A DNA stretch of 64,000 nt. Origin: a virus (taxonomy: Duplodnaviria > Caudoviricetes). Below are positions 2,044-59,839 of this stretch, piece after piece. The DNA is taken from positions 1-64,000 of IMG/VR virus record IMGVR_UViG_3300032219_002522; one strand, written 5' to 3'. Every line of letters starts with the position of its first letter. The stretch's first letter is position 1. A program made the position numbers and the translations under genes. The notes under the pieces were generated by a model. It had not been told where the DNA came from and did no database searches. It saw only the letters and a list, made by a program, of their open reading frames with translations.

Positions 2044-3657
2044 ATGAACTACGTAGATTCTTTCTATAACTTTGCACCAAATGATGGGACACCCAATTTA
2101 AATGAATTATTCTCTCTGAGCTCAGAGGGAGGTTTTATGGCTAAATATAATTGCGAGTCATTTAAAAATTTATTTTCTGAATATTTAAACGAGTCTGACA
2201 GCTATATGGAGGATGAATCTCTTAATGAGATGCACTCATATTATGAAATGTCTATGCTATCTGAGGCTAGATCATCTTGGGATAATACTGATGGTGAAAT
2301 AAATTATATAGACGCTGAAACGCACGTTATTTTAATAAAAAATTCGGAAGCTTTCGTTATAGAAAAGAAAACTTTTGATATGTTTCAAAATATCGATGAA
2401 TCTTGGCTTGGTAATATGTGGAATAAAGGGAAAGAAGCAGTTAAAGGTATTAAGAATAGAATTGTCGCTAAAGCTAAAGAAAAAATATCGCAGGCTAAAA
2501 AGTATGTTTCTAAGGCTTGGGATAAAATATCAGACGGTGCTAAAAAAGCATGGGAATGGATGAAAACTGCAGTAGCTGCAGTGGGTAAATTTATAGGAGA
2601 TAATATAGAAACTATAAGTCTTGTTCTTAGTATACTTTCTGCAGTTTTTGGTATAGCTGGAGGAATAACAACAGCAGTTGGGGTTGGCGCAATTCTTACT
2701 GCAATCGGCGGTGTACTCATGGCTTTAAATGGAGGATTACACATATATGAAGGATTTCATAAAATAGATCATGCTGGGAAGGTTCTTAAAAATGTACCAA
2801 TAGATCCAGTGTCTAAGACTATTGCTGGAATGGTAAAAGCAGGTCCTGATTTTTTATTAGGTGGTTTATTTCTTCCACTAGGATTTTATGATATAAGCCA
2901 CGGATTAACTGAGGCATTGGCAAATCCTGCAGCGGGATCAATAGGTATGGCTGTAAAAGAAACTGCTAAAGAAGCTGCTCATTCGTGGGTAGGAAATCTT
3001 GGTCATATAATAGAAGAAGTTTTAGGAGGGTTTGTTAAGGAATTTTTTAAAAATGCTAAACTAGGAGCAGCAATAGGAGGAGGTATAGTTGGTATAATGT
3101 CAGTGGTCCTTGCTAAGTTCTTTACTGATGTTTGTGGATGGTTATACGAGTTTATGCTAAAAAGCTCTGATTTAATTCTTAAAGGAATAAATTGGCTTTT
3201 AGATATTCCTAAAAAGTTAACTGATGCAATAACTAAATTTTCTAAAAGTGCTGATGGAATTTTATCTAATATAATAGCAAAAGGACTAAGTGCTATAGTT
3301 AAACCAATGACATCTTTTCTAGCTAGAATTAATGAAAAATATTTTAAACCTCTTGTTAAAAGAGCACAAGGATTCATAAAAAGACAAATTGAAGCTAAAA
3401 AAATTCTAGATGCTGAAATGGAAAAAGCTCACGGTGGTCATGGTAAAGGAGCTGATAATAAAAAACCTAAAGTTGTTATAGCAAAAACTAAAGGTAAACC
3501 CCTAGTTAAGATGGGAGAGGTAAAAATAGAAAAAAAAGACGCTAAATATATAAAAGCTATACAGAAGGGAACTAAACCTAAGGATAAAAAAGTTAAAGAG
3601 TCTTCATTATGGGAAAGAAAATATGTTAGTTCTTTTGATAATTTAGATTTTATTTAA
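2044..3657 (+). CDS. Large membrane or amphipathic-helix protein, unknown function
   Basis: Likely start ATG 2044 after GATATATA (2016); central hydrophobic Gly/Ala-rich segments. Confidence 0.6.
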   Translation: MNYVDSFYNFAPNDGTPNLNELFSLSSEGGFMAKYNCESFKNLFSEYLNESDSYMEDESLNEMHSYYEMSMLSEARSSWDNTDGEINYIDAETHVILIKNSEAFVIEKKTFDMFQNIDESWLGNMWNKGKEAVKGIKNRIVAKAKEKISQAKKYVSKAWDKISDGAKKAWEWMKTAVAAVGKFIGDNIETISLVLSILSAVFGIAGGITTAVGVGAILTAIGGVLMALNGGLHIYEGFHKIDHAGKVLKNVPIDPVSKTIAGMVKAGPDFLLGGLFLPLGFYDISHGLTEALANPAAGSIGMAVKETAKEAAHSWVGNLGHIIEEVLGGFVKEFFKNAKLGAAIGGGIVGIMSVVLAKFFTDVCGWLYEFMLKSSDLILKGINWLLDIPKKLTDAITKFSKSADGILSNIIAKGLSAIVKPMTSFLARINEKYFKPLVKRAQGFIKRQIEAKKILDAEMEKAHGGHGKGADNKKPKVVIAKTKGKPLVKMGEVKIEKKDAKYIKAIQKGTKPKDKKVKESSLWERKYVSSFDNLDFI

Positions 3658-3998
3658 TCGAACTTATCTATTATCCAAAATCCGATAACCATTATAATAG
3701 AAAATACTAATAATGTTATTAAAGAGTCCATTTAACTATATATGATAGCATATACCATATTTATTATCCTGTCAACATTAATGGTAACTTCTGGATTTTT
3801 GTTTTGGATAATATCACTATTTACTGGAGATCTTAAAAGACCAATATTATCACTAATCGCATATATATTTTGGCCATTAAGTCTAGCTTTTATAACCTTT
3901 TATGCTTATTTATTAAATAGATATAATTCTAGGAAATCTATTTTTTAATCATATTATTTTTACTACATTTATAAAAATAAATCTAGATATATAATATC

Positions 3999-9122: not shown

Positions 9123-9896
9123 ATGAAGCATATAAAAAGTGTAGAAGAATTTACTATGATATATGAGCAATTGTTTGCATCAGATATAGCACAATTTAAT
9201 AAATTGATGGGTATATCAGTAGAAGAAACTGGACAGGAAGAACCTAATCTAATTGGTGCAGAGAATCCTTCAGGAATGGGTTCTGCATTCGCTCCTGTAG
9301 CTAAACTTAATACTAATCAATTAGATACTTATGGTTCAACTGTGGGAATTAACGAAAAAGGAGATAATGCTGATTTAAATCAACCACTAAGGGGACCACT
9401 AGGTAATATAGTAAATTCGGCTTATGCTAATTTAAATGTTTCAACAAGAAAAATACCAGGTACAAATGGAGGAAATCTTGGTTGTGCTGCAGCAGTTTCG
9501 ATAATATTTTACAGAGCAACTGGATATGCAATTGCTGGATCTGGAGCTATAACTTTAGGTACTGGCCACATGTGGAGTTATCTAGACAAGGAGAGTAAAA
9601 ATAATGGAGTTTGGCAAAAAATAACAAACTGGAAAACGGAATCTCAACCAGGGGATATCATATTAACAGCTAGAGGATCTAAAGCAGGACACGTTGGTGT
9701 TGTAGTAGAAGGAGGAAATATTATATCTAATTCATCTGGTGGATTCCAAGGAGATAAAAAAGGACAGGTGGAATTAAATTACAACTTAAATACCTGGGAT
9801 AGCGTAGCAAATAGAAATCCACAACAAACAGCTTCTTTTAGATACAAAGGTCCTTATAAAAAAGAATGGGGAAAAGCCAATAGTCCAGTAGCATAA
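9123..9896 (+). CDS. NlpC/P60- or CHAP-like cysteine amidase with MKHIKS..EQLF N-module
   Basis: GNLGCAAAVS, QPGDII, GHVGVV, IISNSS catalytic Cys/His pattern. Confidence 0.65.
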   Translation: MKHIKSVEEFTMIYEQLFASDIAQFNKLMGISVEETGQEEPNLIGAENPSGMGSAFAPVAKLNTNQLDTYGSTVGINEKGDNADLNQPLRGPLGNIVNSAYANLNVSTRKIPGTNGGNLGCAAAVSIIFYRATGYAIAGSGAITLGTGHMWSYLDKESKNNGVWQKITNWKTESQPGDIILTARGSKAGHVGVVVEGGNIISNSSGGFQGDKKGQVELNYNLNTWDSVANRNPQQTASFRYKGPYKKEWGKANSPVA

Positions 9897-46946: not shown

Positions 46947-47267
46947 ATGAAAATTATTAACGATGAACAGTTAAACGAATCAATCAAAAGCGGGGATAAA
47001 ACCCTAGTTCTTTTTTCTGCAGATTGGTGTGGACCATGTAAAATAATCAAACCATCACTTGAAAGATTAGAAGAGAAATTAGAAGAAACTCTAAAAATAG
47101 TAAAAGTTGACATTAGCGAAGCAGAAGAATCAGCAAAGAAATTTAACATAAGAAATATACCTACGTGCGTACTTATAGAAGGAGAAAATGAGATAGCTAG
47201 ATTCTCTGGAGTAAAAAATGATGAACAAATTAAAAAATTTCTTGAGGAACATCTGATTTTAAATTGA
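46947..47267 (+). CDS. trxA: Thioredoxin
   Basis: FSADWCGPCK, NIRNIPT. Confidence 0.93.
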   Translation: MKIINDEQLNESIKSGDKTLVLFSADWCGPCKIIKPSLERLEEKLEETLKIVKVDISEAEESAKKFNIRNIPTCVLIEGENEIARFSGVKNDEQIKKFLEEHLILN

Positions 47268-47319
47268 AACTTTATCTATATTTGTAATATATTAATAAAA
47301 CGTTCTTTAACATACTTAT

Positions 47320-47539
47320 TTTCTTGAAGCGGTTTAAAGGGTTACTTCAAAAATACAATTCAATAAGCAACAGGATCGGTTCTCAGGTTCCGGTCTAAAT
47401 AAAGGCTAAATACTGTATTAATCTGAAAGCGCCAGAAATGGAACTAAAGGTAGATTCTCGGTTCAATTCACCTGACTAGAAATTCGGGGATGATTACCTC
47501 CCATAAGGAGGAACCACTCTTTAAAGATTTCTCAAGAAA
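47320..47539 (+). ncRNA. Y-RNA-like unit 1 (long form with ~170 nt internal domain)
   Basis: TTTCTTGA/TCAAGAAA and TTTAAAGGG/CTCTTTAAA stems; conserved GAAGCGG..TACTTCAAA..TTCTC; upstream of Ro60. Confidence 0.65.
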
Positions 47540-47559
47540 GTATTATTATAAAAATAAAC

Positions 47560-47629
47560 TCCGAAGCGGGAATGAGGGATACTTCAAATTATGAAAAACG
47601 AAAACAAACCCTCGTTTAATATTCTCGGA
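47560..47629 (+). ncRNA. Y-RNA-like unit 2
   Basis: TCCGA/TCGGA and GAATGAGGG/CCCTCGTTT stems; same conserved motifs. Confidence 0.65.
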
Positions 47630-47639
47630 TTTTAAATTT

Positions 47640-47720
47640 TATTCTGAAGCGGGATTGGGGGATACTTCAAAAATGATTGTTAGACACCAAAAAATCCACG
47701 AATCAAAAATTCTCAGAATA
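47640..47720 (+). ncRNA. Y-RNA-like unit 3
   Basis: TATTCTGA/TCAGAATA and GATTGGGGGAT/ATCCACGAATC stems; same conserved motifs. Confidence 0.65.
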
Positions 47721-47727
47721 TAAATTT

Positions 47728-47764
47728 AAGGGGTTTGGACGCTATGCGACTGAACCCCTTTTTT
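47728..47764 (+). terminator. Intrinsic terminator between the Y-like array and the Ro60 gene
   Basis: AAGGGGTTTGG...CTGAACCCCTT followed by TTTT. Confidence 0.8.
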
Positions 47765-47790
47765 ATTGTGTAATTATTAAAAACAGATAT

Positions 47791-49416
47791 ATGTCAAGAT
47801 TAAGTGAATTTGCAGACAAAAAAACAGCAATGGCAATTGTACAAAATTCCGTATATGGTGCTTTTGCAGTAGAGAACTTCATGGGTGGAACTTCCTATGA
47901 AATTAATCCTTTGGATACTCTTAGGATCATAGCTGCTTCTTCCATATTTGGAGAGCCACAGTATTACAGAGATGGATTGAATTCTCCTAGTAATCTTCAT
48001 ACATTATCCAAGTATTCGATATTTCCAGAAATGTTTGAATCTGGAGAAAATGCTGTTGATGTTTTTGAAAAGTCTATAGATTCCGCATTAGATTATGATT
48101 TTAAAGGAACTTTGGATCTTGCTTTAGAGTTAAGAACTAAATACTTTATGAGACTTAATCCTTCAGTTATATTCGTGAGAGCTTCTCAGCACGAGAATAG
48201 AGTAAGCTTTAATGAGCTATCCCCAGGATACATGAAAAATATCGGAAAGAAAATTGCTGAAAGACCTGATGATTTAACCAATCAGTTCGAATATTACATG
48301 TTTAAAAATAAGAGTAAGTCAAAACTTCCATCTCTTGTTAAAAGAACATGGTCGGAAAGACTTGAGGAATTCAGTAGATACCAATTAAACAAATACAAAG
48401 GTAAAAAACTTATTGATCTTGTAAGAATTTCACATGCTTCTAACAAGGACATAAGTGAACTAATGAAGACTGGTAAGCTTGAGGTTAAAGAATCTGAGAA
48501 AACTTGGGAGTCTCTAAGATCAGAGGGAAAAACTTGGAAAGAAATAACAGATACTATTCTTATTCCTCATATGGCTCTTCTAAGAAATCTTAGAGGTATA
48601 TTCACAGAGATTGAAGATAGAACAACAACTGCTAGAATATTATCACAATTAAAAGGTGGTGTAGAAAAAGGTAAACAATTCCCTTTTAGATATTGGGCAG
48701 CTTACAAAGCAATACAAAGTGCGGATGTACATAACAAGCAAGCTATCTTAGATACCCTTGAGGAGTGCATAGATCAATCTGTAGAAAATATGCCTAAGTT
48801 AAAGGGAAGAGTGGCTTGTTTATCTGACAACTCTGGATCTGCTTGGGGAACATGCAATAGCGAGTATGGAACCGTGACAGTAGCTGAGATTGCTAACTTG
48901 TCATCTCTTATTACCGCTCTACAATCAGATGAAGGTATAGTTGGAGTATTTGGAGACGATCTTTCTATGAAAAATGTATCTAAAAGAAACGGTCTTCTTA
49001 CACAGTTAGAGGAAACATCTGAAAGAGGTAGAGCTCAGGGTGGCGGAACAGAAAACGGTGTTTGGGTATTCTGGGACGAAGCAATAAAAAATAAAACCCA
49101 TTATGACACTGTATTTATATATTCAGATATGCAGGCAGGTCACGGCGGATTATACGGACACCGAGAGACTGTAGGAAATTCCCCTTATGGATTTAGTAAA
49201 ATAGGAGATACTCACGTAGACGTACTATCTATGGTACAGGAATACAGAAGAACTGTAAATTCTAAAGTTAATGTCTTCTGTGTACAAGTAGCTGGATACA
49301 ACAATTCAGTATTACCTGAGAATTTATATCGAGGAGCAATACTTGCCGGATGGACTGGTAAGGAGCCAATATTTGCTAATGCAATCATAGAGGCTTGGGA
49401 TTCTATAGAATCTTAA
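47791..49416 (+). CDS. Ro60/TROVE-domain RNA-binding protein with C-terminal vWA domain
   Basis: N.MGG.SY, LIDLVRISH, TWE.L.S, MALLRNLR, QFPFRY..AY, MIDAS-like DNSGS, IYSDMQ; start refined to ATG 47791. Confidence 0.92.
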   Translation: MSRLSEFADKKTAMAIVQNSVYGAFAVENFMGGTSYEINPLDTLRIIAASSIFGEPQYYRDGLNSPSNLHTLSKYSIFPEMFESGENAVDVFEKSIDSALDYDFKGTLDLALELRTKYFMRLNPSVIFVRASQHENRVSFNELSPGYMKNIGKKIAERPDDLTNQFEYYMFKNKSKSKLPSLVKRTWSERLEEFSRYQLNKYKGKKLIDLVRISHASNKDISELMKTGKLEVKESEKTWESLRSEGKTWKEITDTILIPHMALLRNLRGIFTEIEDRTTTARILSQLKGGVEKGKQFPFRYWAAYKAIQSADVHNKQAILDTLEECIDQSVENMPKLKGRVACLSDNSGSAWGTCNSEYGTVTVAEIANLSSLITALQSDEGIVGVFGDDLSMKNVSKRNGLLTQLEETSERGRAQGGGTENGVWVFWDEAIKNKTHYDTVFIYSDMQAGHGGLYGHRETVGNSPYGFSKIGDTHVDVLSMVQEYRRTVNSKVNVFCVQVAGYNNSVLPENLYRGAILAGWTGKEPIFANAIIEAWDSIES

Positions 49417-54305: not shown

Positions 54306-54408
54306 ATAAGAGTGGCGGAAGCGAGATCATTTATGATCCGATGGAGAGACGCTAGGGTGTCATGCCAGAGAACGAAAATTCATGTTGGTTCAAGTCCAAC
54401 CTCTTGTA
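54306..54408 (+). ncRNA. tRNA-like RNA with a hairpin inserted in the D loop and a degenerate anticodon arm
   Basis: ATAAGAG/CTCTTGT acceptor, TGGCGGAA..GACGC D arm containing GATCAT-TT-ATGATC, perfect GTTGG-TTCAAGT-CCAAC T arm. Confidence 0.6.
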
Positions 54409-59275: not shown

Positions 59276-59336
59276 TACAAGAAATCATATTTAGATATTT
59301 TGAAAAGGCTTTGATTAACTTCAAAGCCTTTTTTTT
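59264..59336 (+). promoter_or_regulatory. Attenuator 2 (antiterminator/terminator pair)
   Basis: GATCGAAGCT (59264-73) pairs with GGCTTTGATT (59307-16), the 5' arm of terminator AAAAGGCTTTGA-TTAACT-TCAAAGCCTTTTTTTT. Confidence 0.78.
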
Positions 59337-59359
59337 GTTCTTTGACATATTGGAAATTG

Positions 59360-59603: not shown

Positions 59604-59747
59604 AAAAATAAAATAATAAAGCCTATGGATGAAAAAGTGGTAGTAAAAGGAAGTTTCCCCTCTAGTAAAGAAAACTTAAAAAGAGAAACATTAAAATTTA
59701 AACACGCCGAAAGATTAATAAAAAGAATTAAAAGGCTAATTAACAAA

Positions 59748-59833
59748 GGAAAGTAATCTCAGATGGTGACGGGGCTCGCCTGCTAAGCGAAGCGTACCTT
59801 AATTGGTATTTGGTTCGATTCCAATTCTTTCCG
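59748..59833 (+). tRNA. tRNA-Ser(GCT)
   Basis: TCGC-CTGCTAA-GCGA, long variable arm, G73. Confidence 0.87.
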
Positions 59834-59839
59834 CAATAT

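What the first reader, a model, noticed from the sequence alone, without database searches (positions are those of the whole stretch)
47320..47720. Tandem array of three Y-RNA-like hairpins upstream of phage Ro60
Seen: three units share YGAAGCGG-[stem]-TACTTCAAA-variable-[stem']-..TTCTCR. Stem sequences differ but stay paired (TTTCTTGA/TCAAGAAA, TCCGA/TCGGA, TATTCTGA/TCAGAATA; TTTAAAGGG/CTCTTTAAA, GAATGAGGG/CCCTCGTTT, GATTGGGGGAT/ATCCACGAATC), while the internal loop AGCGG/..TTC is invariant. The array has its own promoter, boxA-like element and terminator. Known: Ro60 binds a stem formed by the Y RNA ends near a conserved CGAAG-like motif (unit 2 has TCCGAAG), and bacterial Y RNA genes sit next to Ro. 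Inference: a divergent Y RNA family with a constant Ro-binding module and swappable effector loops.
Basis: partly seen in the sequence, partly recalled or inferred. Interest (0 to 1): 0.8.

Follow-up and report, generated by a model that had tools for sequence, protein, structure and literature searches.

The report
Three Y-RNA genes beside phage Ro60
An uncultured giant phage carries three small RNA genes in a row just upstream of its Ro60 gene; all three share the conserved "handle" of bacterial Y RNAs but carry different, non-tRNA-like interiors, which adds a new variant to a known protein-RNA partnership.

Summary
Window 47317-47720 (+) holds three tandem units. Each has the form stem1 - AGCGG - stem2 - (U/A)UACUUC - variable interior - stem2' - 6-8-nt loop ending UUC - stem1'.

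A covariance model built from 16 short units found 106 matches in 447 kb around related TROVE genes, 105 of them on the TROVE strand. All 16 modelled pairs covary. In Bacillus phage G (497 kb) all six hits lie within 4 kb of its TROVE gene. No hit appeared in 150 other cellular genomes of the order of the one MAG that carries a hit.

The neighbouring protein folds as a full-length Ro60. The handle has the same architecture as Rfam YrlA (RF02553). In phage G and two other contigs the same handle carries a true YrlA-type tRNA-like core. The window's units lack that core: unit 1 carries a conserved ~165-nt structured cargo, and units 2 and 3 carry A-rich loops.

They are therefore best read as Y-RNA paralogs with one Ro60-binding handle and swapped effector parts. 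Binding to Ro60 is inferred, not shown. Y RNAs beside phage Ro60 are published; this subfamily and its cargo-swapping arrays are not in Rfam or in the papers I could search. This scan has noted similar handle-plus-cargo arrays on other DNA.

The parts
47264..47293 (+). Promoter-like region. It holds sigma-70-type hexamers TTGAAA-18-TATATT and contains TATATTTG (47277-47284), which fits the Bacteroidota -7 motif TAnnTTTG.
   Evidence: Consensus scan. The TTGAAAC...TAnnTTTG block is conserved upstream of the first unit in close relatives. Function is inferred.
47301..47312 (+). boxA-like element CGTTCTTTAACA, 5 nt before unit 1.
   Evidence: It is the only exact copy in the window. GTTCTTTAA-type elements occur at the same place before the first unit in at least 12 related contigs whose flanks have diverged. 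The resemblance to rrn boxA rests on established knowledge; function was not tested.
47317..47542 (+). Y-like unit 1 (226 nt): the handle plus a large cargo.
   Evidence: Sequence; fold; 5' half hit by CM R1; alignment with 10 orthologs keeps both handle stems.
47349..47515 (+). Cargo domain of unit 1 (~165 nt). It is structured and conserved in relatives, is not tRNA-like, and its function is unknown.
   Evidence: Alignments A3 and A6 show covarying hairpins, a long-range helix CUGCUA/CAGUAG and a terminal hairpin with a CRUAA loop. It has no Rfam or ARAGORN match.
47558..47631 (+). Y-like unit 2 (core 47560-47629): the handle plus a 23-nt A-rich loop that contains CGAA.
   Evidence: CM R1 80.6 bits, E 1e-17; fold.
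47640..47720 (+). Y-like unit 3: the handle plus a loop of about 25 nt containing UUGUUAGAC.
   Evidence: CM R1 62.9 bits, E 4e-13; fold. Orthologous units in L005-L008 keep the UUGUUAGAC loop motif.
47728..47765 (+). Intrinsic-terminator-like hairpin (AAGGGGTT...AACCCCTT) followed by a T-run, lying between the RNA array and the Ro60 gene.
   Evidence: Fold. Analogous G+C hairpin plus T-run at the same place in L023 and L024. Not listed by the simple scan because the loop is longer than 8 nt.
47791..49416 (+). Ro60 (TROVE + vWA) gene, 541 aa.
   Evidence: Pfam TROVE E 5e-11. AF2 model pLDDT 79.8. Foldseek top 11 hits are all Ro60: phage phiLo 9KOP E 4.5e-15, D. radiodurans Rsr 2NVO, Xenopus 1YVP, and human. 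It is 50.6% identical to Bacillus phage G gp540.

Best explanation
The three units are paralogous Y RNAs (Yrl-type non-coding RNAs) of the phage.

Most likely course of events:
- They are transcribed as one untranslated operon: promoter, then a boxA-like element, then the three units, then a terminator.
- The transcript is cut in the short AU-rich spacers into RNAs of about 226, 70 and 81 nt.
- In each RNA the paired 5' and 3' ends, the asymmetric internal loop (AGCGG opposite 6-8 nt ending UUC), the second helix and the UACUUC box form one constant handle. This handle is the docking site for the phage Ro60 ring encoded 70 nt downstream.
- The interior is a swappable effector part. It would tether Ro60 to different partners or gate its cavity, as shown for other Y RNAs.

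Shown here:
- The handle is a conserved, covarying RNA structure.
- It is strictly linked to Ro60 genes and co-oriented with them.
- It has the same layout as the YrlA handle.
- In sister phages it carries YrlA-type and tRNA-shaped cargo.

Inferred: transcription, processing, Ro60 binding, and what the three cargos of this phage bind.
For: Structure:
- A MAFFT alignment of 16 short units shows 85% of cells paired and 13 of 16 pairs with double changes; 0 of 500 shuffles reach this, and slid controls give 34-51%.
- In 53 CM-aligned units, 89.7% of cells are paired and 16 of 16 pairs covary, against 38-48% for slid controls.
- G-U pairs outnumber A-C 44 to 17 on this strand.
- GCGG, UACUUC and the closing C of the 3' loop are invariant or nearly so in all 53 units.

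Linkage:
- 105 of 106 CM hits are on the TROVE strand and next to the gene.
- All 6 hits in the 497-kb phage G genome lie at 405.2-412.8 kb, around gp540 at 407.4-409.0 kb.
- Each of three 2-3-Mb MAGs has exactly one hit, and it is beside TROVE.
- No hit was found in 150 other genomes of that order.
- 9 of 9 CM-positive loci from a TROVE-blind pattern scan encode TROVE next door.

Homology to Y RNAs:
- The RF02553 consensus is stem1 ending CGA, a 5-nt loop, a 7-bp stem2, CUAc, and on the 3' side an 8-nt loop. That is the same layout as here.
- The same handle in L166:1723-1878 encloses V loop, T arm, 7-bp acceptor stem-loop and D arm. RF02553 matches that core at E 1.5e-6. The same holds in L168 and L169.
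- UUACUUC is shared with the YrlA next to TROVE in Kitasatospora.
- Unit 2 has UCCGAAG, which fits the published GNCGAAN0-1G motif and the metazoan GGUCCGA (Chen 2014).
- Published northern probes imply GGAAGCGG in D. radiodurans Yrn1 and ACUUCAAGG in M. smegmatis YrlB.

Protein: the neighbouring protein is a full-length Ro60 fold.

Precedents: M. smegmatis YrlA and YrlB are cut from one precursor upstream of rsr. Thermus phage phiLo Ro60 binds two RNAs encoded just upstream of its gene.
Against: There is no expression or binding data for this phage or for any member of this subfamily.

RF02553 gives no hit on the window units even at E <= 10, because they lack the tRNA-like core.

The published 5' motif is only partly kept. 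The leading G is absent, and the C is U in units 1 and 3.

A terminator separates the array from Ro60, so co-expression is not guaranteed.

No host or phage effector can be named for the cargos. The 116-kb record is only about 42% of the genome, so a tRNA-like YrlA may lie in the missing part.
Confidence: 0.8

Rival explanations
1. The units are cis-acting leader elements of the Ro60 mRNA. For example, Ro60 could bind its own 5' leader to autoregulate, or the hairpins could act as attenuators. On this reading they are not independent stable RNAs.
For: In the window and its close relatives the array lies directly upstream of the Ro60 gene on the same strand. A boxA-like antitermination element precedes the array, so read-through into Ro60 is conceivable.
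Against: A strong hairpin plus T-run ends the array before the gene, here and in relatives. In L030, L031 and L033 three to four units lie downstream of Ro60 inside tRNA operons. In phage G, units lie 2 kb upstream and 4 kb downstream, with genes in between. Some units carry whole tRNA-shaped cargo. None of this fits a leader.
Confidence: 0.07
2. The handle is bound or processed by a factor other than Ro60, such as a host tRNA-processing or RNA-repair enzyme or another phage protein. Ro60 would then merely be a syntenic neighbour.
For: Binding is untested. Many units sit in tRNA operons and carry tRNA-like parts. YrlA is known to be a substrate of tRNA enzymes.
Against: Ro60 is the only gene consistently adjacent across contigs whose other neighbours differ: thioredoxin here, tRNAs in L030 and L033, unrelated ORFs in phage G. 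The handle layout equals that of YrlA, whose handle is the accepted Ro60/Rsr-binding module. The handle loop sequence also changes with the TROVE clade: AGCGG in the clade with at least 47% identity, UGCAG-type in L046 and L047 at 25-27% identity.
Confidence: 0.08
3. The repeats act at the DNA level (iterons, an origin, or protein-binding palindromes), or they are selfish MITE-like repeats.
For: They are tandem imperfect inverted repeats in an intergenic region.
Against: Pairing is kept through compensatory changes while the sequence drifts. G-U pairs exceed A-C 44 to 17 on one strand. 105 of 106 copies have one orientation relative to TROVE. The unpaired boxes are strand-specific. No copies occur elsewhere in the 116-kb or 497-kb genomes.
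Confidence: 0.02

Closest known systems
YrlA, the tRNA-like bacterial/phage Y RNA (Rfam RF02553; Chen et al. 2014, PMC4201824; structure preprint 10.1101/312249)
   Same: It is encoded next to a Ro60 ortholog and on the same strand. The handle layout is the same: a terminal helix whose 5' strand ends (C/U)GA, a 5-nt 5' internal loop, a second 7-9-bp helix, a YUAY box (here UUAC/AUAC), and a 7-8-nt 3' internal loop. In phage G, L168 and L169 the very same handle carries the YrlA core of V loop, T arm, acceptor stem-loop and D arm.
   Different: The three window units have no T arm, acceptor stem-loop or D arm. The internal loop is AGCGG rather than AUGCU. UACUUC is extended and nearly invariant. 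RF02553 does not score the units at all. The cargos are a ~165-nt unknown domain and two A-rich loops.
Second Y RNAs without a full tRNA-like domain: Salmonella and M. smegmatis YrlB, D. radiodurans Yrn2 (Chen et al. 2014)
   Same: These are short hairpin Y RNAs encoded beside a longer Y RNA and Ro60. In M. smegmatis they are cut from a common precursor upstream of rsr. The M. smegmatis YrlB probe implies an ACUUCAAGG box.
   Different: [quoted passage not shown] Units 2 and 3 here have 23-28-nt purine/A-rich loops, and 15 of 34 short relatives carry CGAA in the loop.
Thermus phage phiLo Ro60 with Yrl1/Yrl2 (NAR 2025, PMC12135203; PDB 9KOP, 9L5Y)
   Same: A phage Ro60 has two or more Y-like RNAs encoded immediately upstream. 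The protein is the best structural match to the window's Ro60. Binding has been shown experimentally in that system.
   Different: Those RNAs were picked by a CGAA motif and single-sequence folding, with no family or covariation support. The protein is only about 20% identical. I saw no shared handle sequence reported.
Metazoan Y RNAs (hY1, hY3-5; Xenopus Y3 in 1YVP)
   Same: Both have a modular design: a Ro60-binding helix formed by the RNA ends plus a variable effector loop, with several paralogs per genome. The 5'-strand motif GGUCCGA(AG) resembles UCCGAAG of unit 2. The metazoan motif is taken from Chen 2014 and from my own knowledge.
   Different: There is no bulged-C helix and no conserved 3' strand. 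The second helix plus UACUUC box is specific to the bacterial/phage Yrl lineage.

Membership tests
YrlA (Rfam RF02553) | Encoded within about 4 kb of a Ro60/TROVE gene and on the same strand. | tested here: met
   The units end 70 nt upstream of the Ro60 start, on the same strand. The same holds in relatives.
YrlA (Rfam RF02553) | 5' motif GNCGAAN0-1G at the end of the terminal helix (the putative Ro60 contact). | tested here: inconclusive
   YGAAG is invariant in the family. Unit 2 reads UCCGAAG, and units 1 and 3 read UUGAAG and CUGAAG with a compensating 3' change. The leading G is absent here, but it is present in L030, L031 and L033 (GGCGAAG).
YrlA (Rfam RF02553) | Handle layout: stem1, then a 5-nt loop, then stem2, then the YUAY box, with a 7-8-nt loop on the 3' side. 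| tested here: met
   RF02553 consensus structure compared with the covarying structure of this family.
YrlA (Rfam RF02553) | tRNA-like core: T arm, acceptor stem-loop and D arm in permuted order. | tested here: not met
   There is no T or D arm in 47317-47720 by ARAGORN, Rfam or motif scans. The core is present in sister units L166:1723-1878, L168 and L169.
YrlA (Rfam RF02553) | Score at or above the Rfam gathering threshold (69 bits). | tested here: not met
   There is no RF02553 hit at E <= 10 on 47200-47850. Even clear YrlA-type RNAs in phage G and Kitasatospora reach only 36 and 40 bits.
Y RNA in the broad sense (a Ro60-bound ncRNA made of a Ro60-binding stem plus an effector module) | Modular build: a conserved end-to-end stem module plus a variable effector module, with several paralogs. 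| tested here: met
   The handle is constant, while the cargos range from 21 to more than 160 nt. They include A-rich loops, anticodon-stem-loop look-alikes, and tRNA-shaped and YrlA-type cores.
Y RNA in the broad sense (a Ro60-bound ncRNA made of a Ro60-binding stem plus an effector module) | Physically bound by Ro60, and its accumulation depends on Ro60. | not testable with these tools
   This needs RIP/EMSA and northern blots.
Ro60 / Rsr (the neighbouring protein) | TROVE HEAT-repeat ring plus a C-terminal vWA domain. | tested here: met
   Pfam TROVE. The AF2 model aligns over 500-600 columns to Ro60 structures 9KOP, 2NVO, 1YVP and 9NEN, and vWA-only hits follow. phmmer against PDB sequences found nothing.
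rrn-type boxA antitermination site | A sequence close to TGCTCTTTAACA, placed at the head of an untranslated structured-RNA operon. | tested here: inconclusive
   CGTTCTTTAACA sits at 47301-47312, and its position is conserved in relatives. A 12-mer with up to 2 mismatches is not enriched in the window. NusB/NusE binding was not tested.

The most novel reading that the evidence does not exclude
The handle is a portable Ro60 adaptor, and phages of this lineage keep small libraries of handle-tagged cargos. The cargos seen are A-rich single strands, lone anticodon-stem-loop look-alikes, whole tRNA-Lys(UUU)/Thr/Ser-shaped domains, permuted YrlA cores, and the ~165-nt domain of unit 1. Each cargo would aim the one Ro60 ring at a different host factor. 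For example, some could act as decoys or sensors for host tRNA-cleaving defence nucleases, and others as tethers to host exoribonucleases. On this reading, unit 1's cargo would be a new structured RNA domain with a partner of its own.
Probability: 0.2. Interest if true: 0.75.

Novelty: new variant of a known kind. Interest (0 to 1): 0.5.

Why it matters
Ro60/Y RNA particles are studied mainly in animals and a few bacteria, and what the variable part of a Y RNA does remains poorly understood.

This lineage gives a natural experiment. One strictly conserved handle sits beside one Ro60 gene and is combined with many different cargos, in arrays of two to seven genes.

The lineage includes a culturable system, Bacillus phage G on B. 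megaterium. There the unannotated units upstream of gp540 can be tested directly for expression, Ro60 binding and partners.

It also supplies a covariance model for Y RNAs that the tRNA-centred RF02553 model cannot see, so many phage Ro60 genes now thought to lack a Y RNA can be re-examined.

Tried and rejected
- Rfam at gathering score and at E <= 10 on the region gave only chance-level hits: PrfA, rli60, snoRNAs.
- blastn of the locus against 50,697 phage records found no match.
- phmmer of the protein against PDB sequences found no match. A fold search was needed instead.
- The exact-pattern scan of viral contigs returned 118+ loci. Of the first 100 of them that I scored with the CM, only 9 were positive, so the rest were chance matches of a gapped 16-base pattern.
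- A fourth CM hit in the phage's own record, at 100556-100620 (E 0.004), lacks GCGG and UACUUC and was discarded.
- Antisense targets: the longest complement of the unit 2 or unit 3 loop elsewhere in the 116-kb record is 11 nt, below the shuffled expectation of about 12.
- tRNA-likeness of unit 1's cargo: GGTTCAATTC at 47460 has no T-stem, and ARAGORN and Rfam are silent.
- RNA-repair context: there is no RtcB in the record. There is only a sub-threshold Rnl2-like hit 58 kb away. PHROGs and Pfam give nothing informative for the flanking ORFs apart from a thioredoxin and a metallophosphoesterase.
- The supplement of Chen 2014, which lists the phage YrlA coordinates, is not held. I could not confirm that their phage G hit is L166:1723-1878.
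- The 2020 Annual Review on bacterial Ro60 is not held.

Full report
**What is there**

The window is the first 64 kb of a 115,839-base IMG/VR virus record that CheckV rates about 42% complete. A thioredoxin gene occupies 46947-47267, and a 541-aa ORF occupies 47791-49416. Between them lie three tandem units on the + strand. Each unit reads stem1 - AGCGG - stem2 - (U/A)UACUUC - interior - stem2' - a 6-8-nt loop ending UUC - stem1'.

- Unit 1 is 47317-47542 (226 nt).
- Unit 2 is 47560-47629 (70 nt).
- Unit 3 is 47640-47720 (81 nt).

The pattern GAAGCGG-N5-14-TACTTCAAA occurs three times in the window and in the whole record, all here. It occurred in none of 100 shuffles. RNAfold of 47310-47770 returns exactly these nested helices and a final G+C hairpin followed by a T-run.

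**The neighbour is a real Ro60**

- Pfam gives TROVE at E 5e-11.
- An AlphaFold model built on 17 homologs has pLDDT 79.8.
- Its eleven best PDB matches are all Ro60 proteins aligned over the full length: Thermus phage phiLo 9KOP (E 4.5e-15), D. radiodurans Rsr 2NVO, Xenopus 1YVP and human 9NEN. Isolated vWA domains follow.
- The closest protein from an isolated phage is Bacillus phage G gp540, at 50.6% identity.

**The RNA is a conserved family**

tblastn-confirmed relatives of the Ro60 gene were fetched from 43 viral contigs and 10 genome contigs. A simple motif scan found one to five units next to most of them. The closing stems differ freely between units, for example TCCGA/TCGGA, GGCGA/TCGCC, ACCGT/ACGGT and CTTAA/TTAAG.

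On a structure-blind MAFFT alignment of 16 short units:
- 85% of cells are paired.
- 13 of 16 pairs show double changes.
- No shuffle in 500 reaches this, and sliding the 3' partner drops pairing to 34-51%.

A covariance model, R1, was built from that alignment. It found 106 matches at E <= 1 in 447 kb, 105 of them on the Ro60 strand. On 53 CM-aligned units with E < 1e-4:
- 89.7% of cells pair, and all 16 pairs covary.
- G-U pairs outnumber A-C 44 to 17.
- GCGG, UACUUC and the last C of the 3' loop are invariant or nearly so.

**Linkage to Ro60 is strict**

- In the 497-kb genome of phage G, all six hits lie at 405.2-412.8 kb around gp540 (407.4-409.0 kb). Five of them are tandem in the 1-kb unannotated gap just upstream of the gene.
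- Three MAGs of 2-3 Mb each have a single hit, and it is beside TROVE.
- 150 other genomes of the order of one of these MAGs have none at E <= 1e-4.
- A TROVE-blind pattern scan of viral contigs gave mostly chance matches. Of the first 100 of its loci scored with the CM, 9 were positive, and all nine encode TROVE next door on the same strand.

**Relation to known Y RNAs**

Chen et al. 2014 define YrlA by three features: a 5' GNCGAAN0-1G motif, a conserved YUAY about ten bases later, and a permuted tRNA-like core of V loop, T arm, acceptor stem-loop and D arm.

The Rfam RF02553 consensus is stem1 ending CGA, a 5-nt loop (AUGCu), a 7-bp stem2 and CUAc. On the 3' side it has stem2', an 8-nt loop and stem1'. 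That is the layout found here, with a different loop sequence.

The same handle encloses a textbook YrlA core in phage G (L166:1723-1878):
- T arm GGTGG-TTCGAGT-CCACC.
- A 7-bp acceptor stem-loop followed by ACCA.
- D arm TAGCTCAGTTGGTAGAGCA.

R1 scores that unit at E 3e-7, and RF02553 scores its core at E 1.5e-6. L168 and L169 show the same arrangement. UUACUUC also occurs in the YrlA next to TROVE in Kitasatospora. The reverse complements of published northern probes imply GGAAGCGG in D. radiodurans Yrn1, UUACCACUUC in M. smegmatis YrlA, and ACUUCAAGG in M. smegmatis YrlB.

The more distant Ro60 clade, at 25-27% identity (L046, L047), keeps UUACUUC but has a UGCAG-type loop and escapes R1. 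So the handle changes with the protein.

**What is different in the window**

None of the three units has a T arm, an acceptor stem-loop or a D arm, and RF02553 does not score them at E <= 10.

Units 2 and 3 carry 23-28-nt A-rich loops. Their orthologs in closer relatives keep unit-specific loop motifs...CGAAAA... for unit 2, and UUGUUAGAC for unit 3. Fifteen of 34 short loops contain CGAA, against 3 expected. This figure is not corrected for relatedness.

Unit 1 carries a ~165-nt cargo that is conserved and structured in at least ten relatives. It shows covarying hairpins, a long-range helix and a terminal hairpin with a CRUAA loop. It matches nothing in Rfam.

Elsewhere in the family the cargo is one of three other kinds: a whole tRNA-shaped domain in normal order (ARAGORN calls Lys-UUU three times, plus Thr, Ser and 'Stop'), a lone anticodon-stem-loop look-alike, or the YrlA core.

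**Transcription unit**

Upstream of unit 1 there is a promoter-like block and the boxA-like CGTTCTTTAACA. Both are conserved in position in relatives whose flanks differ. A terminator-like hairpin follows the last unit, here and in relatives. In L030 and L033 the units directly follow tRNA genes. This fits a stable-RNA operon that is cut into separate RNAs, as published for M. smegmatis YrlA/YrlB. None of it has been shown for this phage.

**Mechanism and rivals**

The best-supported model, at about 0.8, is that each RNA docks on the phage Ro60 through the handle and presents its own cargo as a tether or gate, as established for other Y RNAs.

- A leader or autoregulatory role is disfavoured by the terminator, and by units lying downstream of Ro60 or kilobases away in other phages.
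- A non-Ro60 binder cannot be excluded without biochemistry.
- A DNA-level role is disfavoured by the covariation, the G-U excess and the strand bias.
- No antisense target for the loops exists in the available 116 kb.

**Novelty**

Y RNAs beside phage Ro60 genes have been published since 2014, in 22 phages that reportedly include phage G. In 2025 binding was shown for phage phiLo. This subfamily is not in Rfam, and it is not in the papers found by three full-text searches. The same applies to the non-tRNA cargos, and to arrays of two to seven handle-tagged RNAs.

This scan has noted similar handle-plus-cargo arrays beside Ro60-like genes on other DNA, and the same array of this genome in an overlapping window. 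I rate it a new variant of a known kind, of moderate interest. It is made more useful by the fact that the same RNAs sit unannotated in a culturable phage.

Noticed in passing
window 54306-54408 (+): A tRNA-like element lies right after tRNA-Leu. It has a good acceptor stem and T arm but a ~28-nt insert in the D region that contains GGCGGAAGCGAG. Rfam tRNA scores only 21 bits (E 0.02), and ARAGORN does not call it.
   Followed up: partly
window ~59745-59835 (+): A T arm (GGTTCGATTCC at 59812) and an acceptor-like pairing GGAAAG/CTTTCC suggest a type-II tRNA-Ser(GCU)-like gene just before tRNA-Ile. Neither ARAGORN nor Rfam called it.
   Followed up: no
L030:4612-5120, L031:1795-2140, L033:4648-5020: In phages whose Ro60 is about 50% identical, the same handle carries whole tRNA-shaped cargo in normal D-anticodon-T order (ARAGORN: Lys-UUU three times, Thr-GGU, Ser-GCU, 'Stop'-UUA). 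It also carries lone anticodon-stem-loop look-alikes such as GACUUGAAAUC. These units lie downstream of Ro60 inside tRNA operons.
   Followed up: partly
L166 (Bacillus phage G, NC_023719) 3195-3885, 1723-1878, 9302-9372: Seven handle units lie around gp540, five of them tandem in an unannotated 1-kb gap. Only the unit at 1723-1878 has a YrlA-type core. None of the seven is annotated in the record.
   Followed up: yes
window 47455-47470 (unit 1 cargo): The relatives carry GGUUUAAUUC here, conserved in 9 of 11 of them; the window's own copy reads GGUUCAAUUC. From memory, GGUUUAAUUC also occurs in bacterial 16S rRNA near helix 31. This is untested and could be chance.
   Followed up: no
short cargo loops of 34 units (alignment A5), including window 47586-47608: CGAA occurs in 15 of 34 short loops, just 5' of stem 2' (3.0 expected, maximum 9 in 1000 shuffles). 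This may be a second Ro60-type motif or simply shared ancestry.
   Followed up: partly
G000:C1:106151-106696 (outside the window): An Rnl2-type RNA-ligase Pfam match scores just under the cut-off (26.4 against 27 bits) in a 461-aa ORF. No RtcB is present in the 116-kb record.
   Followed up: no
window 59336-59347 (+): A second boxA-like element, TGTTCTTTGACA, lies just before the tRNA array that starts at 59359.
   Followed up: partly
L111 (contig labelled GVMAG-M-3300027892-70): A contig binned as a giant-virus MAG also carries a handle unit (E 6e-10) beside a TROVE gene that is 35% identical.
   Followed up: no
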